In this document: one piece after another, positions 4,098 through 4,360 of the stretch
Layout of the letters: the number at the start of each line of letters is the position of its first letter
Position numbering within the stretch: position 1 is the stretch's first letter
Source of the DNA: a virus
Taxonomy: Duplodnaviria > Heunggongvirae > Uroviricota > Caudoviricetes
Virus record (IMG/VR): IMGVR_UViG_2778261448_000002
Coordinates: 1 to 8,054 of that record
DNA length: 8,054 nt
Direction: 5' to 3' (one strand)
Notes under the pieces: model-generated
What the model was told of the DNA's origin: nothing
Seen by the model: the letters and a program-made list of their open reading frames with translations, nothing else
The model's database searches: none
Translations under genes and position numbers: made by a program

Positions 4098-4360
4098 TAA
4101 GATGAATTTCCAGGTTTTGCTTAATACGTGATTAATCTCAACGTTTTTTATAGATGTTAACAACATCGGAATGATGCATCACCGGCCCTGTCAGGAAATA
4201 CAAAATCTCCACCGATAATGCACCATTACGCTGTTGTAAAAAAACAGCACTGGACTGTAACCGATATCACGTATTACAGAACAGGATGTGGATAAAGATT
4301 CAGGAAAACATCCCACATATAATATGTCAGTGCCCAAAACAACTTGGTATCGTCTACTGC

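What the first reader, a model, noticed from the sequence alone, without database searches (positions are those of the whole stretch)
4100..4360. About 260 nt untranslated segment between tRNA-Gly and the first strong terminator: candidate phage sRNA or tRNA trailer
No ORF with a plausible start context lies between the tRNA-Gly 3' end and the terminator at 4072..4097, yet the segment ends at a strong terminator and contains a stable 6-bp hairpin (GCTGTT / AACAGC around a T-rich loop, about 4220..4245). It would be co-transcribed with the tRNAs and could be processed into a stable small RNA, analogous to lambda 6S RNA.
Basis: inference. Interest (0 to 1): 0.35.

Follow-up and report, generated by a model that had tools for sequence, protein, structure and literature searches.

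The report
Structured RNA trailing prophage tRNA-Gly
The "empty" 290 bases after two prophage tRNA genes encode a conserved, elaborately folded non-coding RNA (a four-way junction plus a long rod, ending in a terminator) that is found in about 8% of E. coli genomes and matches no described RNA family; what it does is still unknown.

Summary
On the minus strand, tRNA-Thr and tRNA-Gly are followed by 289 nt (4360..4072) with no conserved ORF, ending in a strong intrinsic terminator. The segment is a member of an unannotated structured-RNA family. Sixty distinct relatives from Escherichia/Shigella prophages and IncF plasmids fold the same way: a four-way junction (4334..4246), a U-rich linker, a 78-nt rod (4237..4160, z = -6.2), an A/U-rich tail and the terminator. 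In the aligned relatives 96% of predicted pair cells are standard pairs, against 32-55% in slid controls. Twenty-two of 54 pairs show compensatory changes, and 0 of 500 shuffles reach the observed values. No reading frame is conserved. Rfam 15 has no match, and it is not PasA/PasD, AgvB/AsxR or STnc100, although STnc100 occupies the same slot in O157 Sakai. The lambda 6S analogy is misplaced, because a pR'-tR'-like leader lies upstream (~4812..4735). Most likely it is a stable RNA co-transcribed with the tRNAs and freed by processing, acting in trans. Expression and function are untested.

The parts
4439..4514 (-). tRNA-Thr (UGU), first intact tRNA of the unit
   Evidence: ARAGORN; Rfam tRNA 73.8 bits.
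4361..4435 (-). tRNA-Gly (UCC) with encoded CCA. The structured RNA starts about 23 nt after its 3' end.
   Evidence: ARAGORN; Rfam tRNA 67.8 bits. Of 122 pattern matches in fetched loci, 111 have a tRNA-Gly 3' end within 260 nt upstream.
4338..4360 (-). Variable linker between the tRNA-Gly CCA end and the structured core; presumed site of endonucleolytic release (inferred).
   Evidence: Poorly conserved columns 1-27 of alignment A1.
4246..4334 (-). Domain 1, a four-way junction (cloverleaf-like). P1 is 4334..4328 with 4252..4246 (GGCACUG/CAGUGCU). P2 is 4327..4323 with 4319..4315. P3 is 4314..4308 with 4289..4283. P4 is 4279..4273 (+4271..4270) with 4263..4255.
   Evidence: MFE of the window (-24.7 kcal/mol, z = -2.1). 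Every homologue gives the same architecture when folded alone. Compensatory changes occur in P1 (U-A to C-G in L171), P2, P3 and P4.
4238..4245 (-). Conserved U-rich single-stranded linker (UGUUUUUUU A) between the two domains.
   Evidence: Invariant T run in A1 and A2.
4160..4237 (-). Domain 2, a 78-nt rod. The lower stem is ACAACA.CG with CC.GAUGUUGU. The main stem is 17 bp, AAUGGUGCAUUAUCGGU with GCCGGUGAUGCAUCAUU. The apical hairpin is 4210..4205 with 4199..4194, and a conserved 3' bulge UGACAGG lies at 4193..4187.
   Evidence: -36.9 kcal/mol, z = -6.2, 0 of 200 shuffles. Helices 5 and 6 are 97% paired, with 13 of 34 pairs changed on both sides. This is the most persistent part in decayed copies (L226:7133-7254, L301).
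4148..4337 (-). Extent of the match to covariance model R1 (domains 1 and 2).
   Evidence: 163 bits, E = 3e-34. The opposite strand scores only 32 bits.
4099..4159 (-). A/U-rich, mostly unpaired tail, conserved among short-form relatives (..UAAGCAAAACCUGGAAAUNCAUCUUAAC); candidate seed or RNase E/Hfq region (inferred).
   Evidence: Conserved columns 270-305 of A1; little predicted structure.
4072..4098 (-). Intrinsic terminator that ends the RNA.
   Evidence: Terminator scan; the stem is invariant or changes C-G to U-G in 23 relatives.
4039..4056 (-). Second terminator-like hairpin (context; back-up insulation before the lysis genes).
   Evidence: A near-identical hairpin directly follows argO in Sakai Sp4.
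3928..3943 (-). Third terminator-like hairpin, just before the holin ribosome-binding site (holin ATG at 3902) (context).
   Evidence: holin annotation in the identical locus of strain RM10740.

Best explanation
The interval encodes a roughly 265-290-nt structured non-coding RNA belonging to a family that is not in Rfam 15 and was not described in any paper I read. I call it the tRNA-Gly-trailer RNA. Shown: it has a conserved two-domain fold (four-way junction plus rod) maintained by compensatory substitutions; it reads on the tRNA strand; it always ends at an intrinsic terminator; it does not code for protein; and it occurs in many Escherichia/Shigella prophages and on IncF plasmids, whatever protein genes flank it. 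Inferred: it is transcribed together with tRNA-Thr and tRNA-Gly. Relatives have a good TTGNNA-16-TATTAT promoter in front of the tRNAs, so it would be made in lysogens, and Q-modified polymerase would read through it late in infection. It would be cut away from tRNA-Gly by the normal tRNA 3'-processing nucleases. It would then persist as a stable RNA, protected by its structure and by the terminator hairpin with its U tail. Most likely mechanism, at moderate confidence: it acts in trans on the host as a moron-type riboregulator or protein-binding RNA. The invariant single-stranded or wobble-paired stretches are the candidate contact surfaces: UGUUGU at the rod base, the CUGGCAGG bulge, the U7 linker and the A/U-rich tail. 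This is what STnc100/EcOnc05 is thought to do from the same slot in other lambdoid prophages, and what the 3' external transcribed spacer of leuZ does in the host.
For: Structure: each of 33 homologues folded alone gives the same architecture. On the model-based alignment of 60 distinct sequences, 96.2% of cells pair, against 32-55% when partners are slid. Twenty-two of 54 pairs and 143 cells have changes on both sides, against 5-11 pairs and 21-42 cells in slid controls. None of 500 shuffles reach any of the five measures. A structure predicted from the window sequence alone and projected on the others still gives 89.8% paired and 21 compensatory pairs. Strand: 163 bits on the minus strand, 32 bits on the plus strand. 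Non-coding. Autonomy from neighbours: upstream genes vary (three Q families, methyltransferase, AraC, IS1) and so do downstream genes (two holin types, TerB, subAB toxin, DMT transporter). Selection on the RNA itself: copies next to decayed tRNAs keep the fold with compensatory changes (L237:4039-4224, L200:1535-1720, pVir68 at 134 bits). Own promoter in relatives. Positional precedent: STnc100 (138 bits) sits in the tRNA trailer of Sakai Sp4 and corresponds to the Hfq-bound ~222-nt EcOnc05 (PMC4104026).
Against: There are no expression data for any member, so the 5' end, stability and abundance are unknown. In the window's own lineage the region before tRNA-Thr has only a TATAAT with no good -35. 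No target was found: the tail's complementarity to RyhB, GcvB and ChiX is no better than shuffles. About 200 nt of tightly conserved fold is atypical for an Hfq seed-type sRNA. The alignment used for pair counts was fitted to the model and the sequences are related, so the shuffle control overstates significance. A prophage Thr-Gly array exists without this RNA (L298).
Confidence: 0.55

Rival explanations
1. It is a cis-acting processing and insulation module. The rod (about 25 stacked pairs) would be an RNase III or RNase E entry site that separates the tRNA precursor from downstream RNA. Together with the three terminators it would keep a constitutive tRNA promoter from expressing the holin in lysogens and tune lysis mRNA stability after Q read-through.
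For: The rod is long enough for RNase III and has z = -6.2. It is the part that survives in decayed copies. An unrelated trailer after the same tRNA array also has a perfect 14-bp hairpin (L298). Three terminator-like hairpins precede the holin. RNase III sites in lambda and T7 transcripts are established knowledge.
Against: A mere cleavage site would not need an invariant sequence on both strands plus a conserved four-way junction. The module is kept intact on plasmids and next to dead tRNAs, where there is no lysis cassette or functional tRNA to serve.
Confidence: 0.2
2. It is a tRNA-like decoy or protein sponge. The cloverleaf-like domain 1, made next to phage copies of host tRNAs, would bind a tRNA-handling enzyme or a tRNA-cleaving defence or toxin nuclease and so protect translation.
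For: Domain 1 has tRNA topology: a 7-bp closing stem, three arms, and a 4-6 nt junction where the variable loop would be. It is tightly linked to tRNA-Gly(UCC). Phage tRNAs countering anticodon nucleases is established knowledge.
Against: ARAGORN and the Rfam tRNA model do not recognise it. Loop sizes (18 nt in P3) and the lack of T-loop and D-loop signatures are not tRNA-like. P3 and P4 differ greatly in length between subfamilies. In decayed copies domain 1 is lost and the rod is kept.
Confidence: 0.1
3. It is non-functional conserved DNA: a recombination linker between lambdoid modules or a decaying remnant. The apparent structure would be a by-product of relatedness.
For: Lambdoid phages share conserved intergenic boundary sequences (established knowledge). 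Many of the 60 sequences are close relatives, and the alignment was fitted to the model.
Against: Compensatory changes are spread over all six helices, and the slid controls, which keep relatedness, fall to 32-55% paired. Subfamilies only about 70% identical fold identically on their own. There is a strong strand asymmetry caused by G-U pairs.
Confidence: 0.07
4. It encodes a small protein, as PGAP annotates in some relatives (86-103 aa 'hypothetical protein').
For: PGAP calls ORFs over the core in L005, L006 and L011.
Against: Those ORFs run through the terminator. The frame is not conserved: no frame is open in more than 16 of 60 sequences, and the window has stops in all frames. There is no codon periodicity and no Pfam or PHROG match.
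Confidence: 0.02

Closest known systems
STnc100 (Rfam RF02076; EcOnc05/EcOnc27 of E. coli O157 Sakai)
   Same: It occupies the same slot in lambdoid prophages, downstream of Q and the tRNA array or toxin genes, on the same strand, and ends in a terminator. It is a multibranch RNA of about 200 nt. Long-form relatives of the present RNA carry, after the rod, an insert with two STnc100-like hairpins.
   Different: There is no sequence or model similarity. Rfam STnc100 does not hit the window at E <= 10, and model R1 does not hit the Sakai locus. The helices and conserved motifs differ, and the window carries the short form without the STnc100-like insert.
3' external transcribed spacer of the glyW-cysT-leuZ tRNA operon
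   Same: It is an RNA made as the trailer of the last tRNA of an operon, ends at the operon terminator and is released by tRNA 3' processing. It shows that tRNA trailers can be functional RNAs.
   Different: 3'ETS-leuZ is about 50 nt and little structured, and it acts by pairing with RyhB and RybB. This RNA is about 290 nt with two conserved domains, and its tail shows no above-chance complementarity to RyhB.
Lambda 6S RNA / StxS (pR'-tR' leader transcripts)
   Same: It is a short terminated transcript of the late region of lambdoid phages, made in lysogens.
   Different: Those RNAs start at pR' directly after Q and end at tR', before any gene. In this window the candidate for that is about 4812..4735. 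The finding lies after two tRNAs and has an unrelated fold.
Pas sRNAs, AgvB/AsxR and HnrS (prophage sRNAs of EPEC/EHEC)
   Same: They share the genomic neighbourhood (between Q and the lysis genes of lambdoid prophages) and have intrinsic terminators (PMC4104026, PMC8550237, bioRxiv 10.64898/2026.05.13.724894).
   Different: They are 50-240 nt, several lie on the opposite strand, and they are concentrated in EPEC/EHEC. BLAST found no similarity to the E2348/69 loci that hold PasA, PasC, PasD1 and PasD2; the PasA and PasD fragments were located there but not in the window or its relatives. No AgvB or AsxR hit in Rfam.
Phage T4 species 1 and 2 RNAs (rnaC, rnaD), and the large GOLLD/ROOL RNAs found next to phage tRNA genes (own knowledge)
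   Same: They are stable structured RNAs of unknown function encoded in or beside phage tRNA clusters.
   Different: There is no sequence or model relationship (no Rfam hit). The hosts, sizes and folds differ.

Membership tests
STnc100 (RF02076) | Match to the Rfam covariance model at or above the gathering score of 47 bits | tested here: not met
   No STnc100 match in the window at E <= 10. The positive control, Sakai Sp4, scores 138 bits.
STnc100 (RF02076) | Location in the Q-to-lysis region of a lambdoid prophage, on the late-gene strand, ending in a terminator | tested here: met
tRNA / tRNA-like structure | Recognised by ARAGORN or the Rfam tRNA model; 7-nt anticodon loop and T-loop and D-loop signatures | tested here: not met
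   Only the two true tRNAs are called. Domain 1 shares only the four-way topology.
GcvB (RF00022) | Rfam gathering score of 42 bits | tested here: not met
   18.6 bits, with a poor alignment carried by the terminator.
tRNA 3'-ETS-derived RNA (3'ETS-leuZ type) | Begins just after the last tRNA of a transcription unit and ends at that unit's intrinsic terminator | tested here: met
   The core starts 23 nt after the CCA of tRNA-Gly and the terminator is at 4098..4072. The same arrangement is seen in 106 of 122 related places.
tRNA 3'-ETS-derived RNA (3'ETS-leuZ type) | Released by RNase E, bound by Hfq, and sponges sRNAs by base pairing | tested here: inconclusive
   Processing and Hfq binding cannot be tested here. 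Complementarity of the tail to RyhB, GcvB and ChiX is not above shuffles.
Lambda 6S / pR' leader RNA | Starts at pR' immediately downstream of Q and ends at tR', upstream of all late genes | tested here: not met
   The interval lies downstream of two tRNAs. A separate Q-proximal hairpin and terminator lie at about 4812..4735.
Pas sRNAs (PasA, PasC, PasD) | Sequence similarity to the E2348/69 genes | tested here: not met
   BLAST of the trailers against the three E2348/69 loci that hold PasA, PasC, PasD1 and PasD2 gave nothing at E < 1e-3. The PasA and PasD fragments were located in those loci but not in the window or its relatives. PasB was not tested.
Rho-independent terminator | G+C-rich hairpin followed by a U run | tested here: met
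   7-bp stem with 5 G-C pairs, loop of 6, nine U.
New family (model R1) | Two-domain fold with P1 GCACUG/CAGUGC, a rod containing AAUGGUGCAUU...GAUGCAUCAUU, and invariant UGUUGU | tested here: met
   The window scores 163 bits, E = 3e-34. It was part of the seed alignment, so this is by construction. Members outside the seed score 85-218 bits.

The most novel reading that the evidence does not exclude
The tRNA-Gly-trailer RNA is not an ordinary base-pairing sRNA. It would be a new class of medium-sized structured RNA with its own biochemical role, for example a tRNA-mimicking decoy that neutralises a tRNA-directed defence nuclease or captures a tRNA-processing or RNA-chaperone protein. It would spread as a self-contained promoter-tRNA-RNA-terminator cassette among prophages and conjugative plasmids of enterobacteria.
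Probability: 0.12. Interest if true: 0.8.

Novelty: new member of a known kind. Interest (0 to 1): 0.5.

Why it matters
E. coli is the most intensively annotated bacterium. Yet a 200-nt RNA fold with clear covariation, present in roughly one genome in twelve and on IncF virulence plasmids, is absent from Rfam and from RefSeq annotation, where it is sometimes mis-called as a protein. It sits in the prophage "moron" slot that elsewhere carries Shiga toxin, subtilase toxin and LT-II, and the regulatory RNAs STnc100, AgvB and Pas. A role in host manipulation or phage-host conflict is therefore plausible and directly testable. It also extends the idea that tRNA trailers are a source of functional RNAs from the host chromosome to mobile elements. 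Practically, the model can correct spurious ORF calls.

Tried and rejected
(1) Known RNA families: a permissive Rfam scan gave only sub-threshold hits (GcvB 18.6 bits, sroB 24.5 bits, leader peptides), all driven by the terminator. Rejected.

(2) Identity with Pas sRNAs: I fetched the three E2348/69 loci that hold PasA, PasC, PasD1 and PasD2 and located the PasA and PasD fragments there. There is no similarity to the window or its relatives.

(3) Identity with Sakai EcOnc05/08/21 (about 222-271 nt): that locus is STnc100, and model R1 does not match it.

(4) Protein coding: frame and periodicity tests, Pfam and PHROGs. Rejected.

I considered a switch between this hairpin and P1 plus the rod base, but nothing supports it.

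(6) A pseudoknot between the apical hairpin (GUAUUUCC) and the tail (GGAAAUAC): the complementarity is lost in the L009 and L007 subfamilies (by inspection). Dropped.

(7) Sponge or seed pairing of the tail with RyhB, GcvB or ChiX: no better than dinucleotide shuffles.

(8) Wider taxonomic range: an exact 18-mer scan of one genome per species found true hits only in Escherichia and Shigella. PLSDB adds 15 Salmonella plasmids. Only 2 of 50,697 deposited phage records carry it.

(9) Gapped-pattern scans of viral contigs mostly returned chance matches, which were filtered out with the model.

Full report
WHAT IS IN THE WINDOW. The window is the late-region junction of an E. coli lambdoid prophage, with its genes on the minus strand. 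It reads: a Q-type antiterminator (DUF1133, ending at about 4841), a terminator-like hairpin (4760..4735), tRNA-Thr(UGU) at 4514..4439, tRNA-Gly(UCC) at 4435..4361, and then the interval in question. That is followed by three terminator-like hairpins (4098..4079, 4056..4039, 3943..3928), the holin start at 3902, and the lysis and terminase genes. The 301 nt around the finding are 100% identical in E. coli RM10740, where RefSeq annotates nothing between tRNA-Gly and the holin.

THE OBSERVATION. It is confirmed. The interval 4360..4099 has no ORF with a credible start, and the only ORFs of 30 aa or more on that strand begin inside tRNA-Gly. It ends in a strong intrinsic terminator: a 7-bp stem, five G-C pairs, and nine U down to 4072. 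The hairpin GCUGUU/AACAGC exists at 4248..4243 with 4235..4230. The full 289 nt fold with z = -4.3.

IT IS A CONSERVED FAMILY. BLAST finds at least part of the interval in 422 of 5,426 complete E. coli genomes. A core at about 4157..4264 is shared most widely. An 18-mer from that core occurs in more than 120 IMG/VR contigs. Among one genome per species, true hits are found only in E. coli, Shigella flexneri and E. ruysiae. Copies about 72% identical lie on 159 plasmids, 144 from Escherichia and 15 from Salmonella, mostly conjugative IncF such as pVir68. Only two deposited phage records carry it. In 111 of 122 places a tRNA-Gly 3' end lies just upstream, and in 106 a GGCGG-U run terminator follows. 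The distance from the tRNA to the terminator falls into two classes: 280-307 nt (the window is 289) and 379-391 nt. The flanking protein genes vary freely. Upstream there are three kinds of Q, a methyltransferase, AraC or IS1. Downstream there are two holin families, TerB/DUF3927, the subtilase toxin genes or a DMT transporter.

STRUCTURE. Thirty-three homologues folded one by one all give the same architecture.
- Domain 1 is a four-way junction closed by GGCACUG/CAGUGCU (P1) with three hairpins (P2-P4).
- A U-rich linker follows.
- Domain 2 is a long rod. Its main stem is AAUGGUGCAUUAUCGGU with GCCGGUGAUGCAUCAUU. It carries an apical hairpin and a conserved 3' bulge, and its base pairs ACAACA with the invariant UGUUGU.
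- In the window the coordinates are 4334..4246 (domain 1, z = -2.1) and 4237..4160 (rod, -36.9 kcal/mol, z = -6.2).

I built a covariance model (R1) from 33 sequences and aligned 66 matches, 60 of them distinct.
- 96.2% of pair cells are standard pairs, against 32-55% when the 3' partners are slid by 1-3 columns.
- 22 of 54 pairs (143 cells) change on both sides, against 5-11 pairs (21-42 cells) in the slid controls.
- None of 500 column shuffles reach the observed value on any of the five measures.
- Compensatory changes occur in all six helices. Examples are P1 U-A to C-G in L171, P4 G-C/C-G to A-U/U-A, and rod pair 147-214, which is split 25 A-U to 25 G-C.

Because that alignment is fitted to the model, I also took the structure predicted from the window sequence alone and projected it on the others. 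It still gives 89.8% paired and 21 compensatory pairs. The many G-U pairs make the fold strand-specific: 163 bits on the minus strand against 32 bits on the plus strand. Caveat: the sequences are related and no phylogeny-aware test was available.

On the same alignment it pairs in 75% of cells, has a single compensatory cell, and is matched or beaten by nearly all shuffles. In relatives it is weak (down to -1 kcal/mol) or shifts register. Its 3' arm is the 5' strand of the rod base, and its 5' arm overlaps P1. It is therefore a possible alternative pairing but not the selected structure.

NOT CODING. No frame on either strand is open in more than 16 of 60 sequences. Variability is equal at the three codon phases. 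The "hypothetical proteins" PGAP calls in some relatives run through the terminator and match nothing in Pfam or PHROGs.

COMPARISON WITH KNOWN RNAs. A permissive Rfam 15 scan gives only the two tRNAs plus sub-threshold noise; there is no AgvB, AsxR, STnc100 or Esr41. The PasA, PasC, PasD1 and PasD2 loci of EPEC E2348/69 share nothing with it. The nearest thing is positional. In O157 Sakai prophage Sp4 the trailer of ileZ-argN-argO holds STnc100 (138 bits). This corresponds to the Hfq-bound ~222-nt EcOnc05 of Tree et al. (PMC4104026). In Stx2 phages STnc100 lies 75 nt after stx2 (PMC12370729). Model R1 does not match that locus. The long-form relatives carry an insert of about 110 nt after the rod that shares two hairpins with STnc100. 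The Rfam model, however, aligns only 13 nt of it. The window has the short form without this insert.

HOW IT PROBABLY WORKS.
- Shown: the conserved fold, the strand, the terminator, and independence from neighbouring proteins.
- Also shown: the fold is retained next to decayed tRNAs. This holds for the second copies in L237 and L200, where the tRNA-Gly 3' end is only a remnant, and for pVir68, where R1 scores 134 bits beside a defective tRNA.
- Inferred, biogenesis: co-transcription with the tRNAs. Five relatives have a TTGNNA-16-TATTAT promoter with an A/T-rich upstream region before tRNA-Thr. The window's lineage has only GTGAATGTATATAAT with no good -35, so its promoter is uncertain.
- Inferred, maturation: the RNA is released by tRNA 3' processing and stabilised by its structure and by the terminator with its U tail.
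- Inferred, function: the retention of the RNA where there is neither a functional tRNA nor a lysis cassette argues for a role of the RNA itself, most simply in trans. Candidate contact surfaces are the elements that stay invariant while their partners wobble: UGUUGU at the rod base, the CUGGCAGG bulge, the U7 linker and the conserved A/U-rich tail.
- I found no target. RyhB, GcvB and ChiX pair with the tail no better than with shuffles.

RIVALS. First, a cis processing and insulation element, with the rod as an RNase III site. Supporting this, a different trailer after the same tRNA array also has a 14-bp perfect hairpin (L298). Second, a tRNA-like decoy; domain 1 has cloverleaf topology only and is not recognised as tRNA. 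Third, non-functional linker DNA. Fourth, a small protein. The last two are unlikely on the covariation and frame evidence.

VERDICT. The finding is real and more interesting than it was described. It is a new family of structured RNA of a known general kind: prophage moron-region RNAs and tRNA-trailer RNAs. The structural evidence is good, but there are no expression or functional data. The lambda 6S analogy should be dropped, because the likely pR'-tR' leader is a separate element at about 4812..4735.

Noticed in passing
window 4735..4842 (minus strand): TTGATT-17-TTCAAT overlaps the Q stop codon. It is followed by a hairpin and a strong terminator (4760..4735); the fold has z = -3.2. It is conserved in L010 and L002. 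This is probably the pR'-tR' short leader, the true counterpart of lambda 6S RNA and StxS.
   Followed up: partly
window ~4515..4590 (minus strand): A tRNA-like remnant lies just upstream of tRNA-Thr. It has an acceptor-like ACCGCCA/UGGCGGU, a D-arm-like GCUC..GAGC and a loop CAUUUAA (a decayed tRNA-Lys?). Neither ARAGORN nor Rfam calls it.
   Followed up: partly
L005:1250-1330, L008, L171, L002, L010 (alignment A4): Relatives have a conserved TTGNNA-16-TATTAT promoter with an A/T-rich upstream stretch about 60 nt before tRNA-Thr. This suggests the tRNA-plus-RNA cassette is an autonomous, lysogen-expressed unit. The window, L011 and L001 instead have GTGAATGT(A/C)TATAAT with no good -35.
   Followed up: partly
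L001:3395-3520, L002:3620-3740, L237:2860-2980 (long-form relatives): A multibranch insert of about 110 nt lies between the rod and the terminator. It shares two hairpins with STnc100 (CCUCAGUGCGAGGG and CGGGAGGCACCCG). Rfam STnc100 aligns only 13 nt of it (10 bits). It may be a diverged STnc100-like domain fused to the new RNA.
   Followed up: partly
L170:2503-2696, L300:2914-3106 (pVir68), L301:2952-3135: The RNA also sits on 159 plasmids, mostly IncF and including 15 from Salmonella, beside a defective tRNA and a DMT transporter gene. The RNA fold is intact while the tRNA has decayed.
   Followed up: partly
L237:4039-4224, L200:1535-1720, L226:7133-7254, L001:1301-1496: Some prophages carry a second, more diverged copy (GC 0.35). 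In L237 the tRNA-Gly upstream of the second copy is reduced to a remnant of its 3' end. L226 keeps only the rod.
   Followed up: partly
L298:1681-1970: A prophage Ile-Lys-Thr-Gly array has a different trailer lacking the new RNA. It contains a perfect 14-bp hairpin, UUAUGAAUGAUCGC/GCGAUCAUUCAUAA, which may be a shortened analogue of the rod.
   Followed up: no
window 4361..4514 vs E. coli chromosomes: The prophage tRNA-Thr and tRNA-Gly are about 98% identical to the host thrU and glyT of the thrU-tyrU-glyT-thrT operon, with tyrU missing between them. This suggests capture from the host.
   Followed up: no
window 4191..4421 (minus strand ORF): phrog_30175 matches only residues 1-21 of this ORF, the part that overlaps tRNA-Gly. 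That PHROG is probably built from spurious ORFs called across tRNA genes.
   Followed up: no
L171:1898-3183; L001:5219-6368: The slot downstream of the RNA carries toxin cargo in relatives: subtilase AB5 toxin genes directly after it in strain P393-F10, and LT-IIb after the lysis genes in SerU-LTIIb.
   Followed up: no
window 4039..4056 and L294:3181..3210: The window's second terminator hairpin (GGCUCGCUACUGCGGGCC) is nearly the same as the hairpin that directly follows argO in Sakai Sp4. The new RNA plus its own terminator therefore looks like an insertion between a tRNA array and that older terminator.
   Followed up: no
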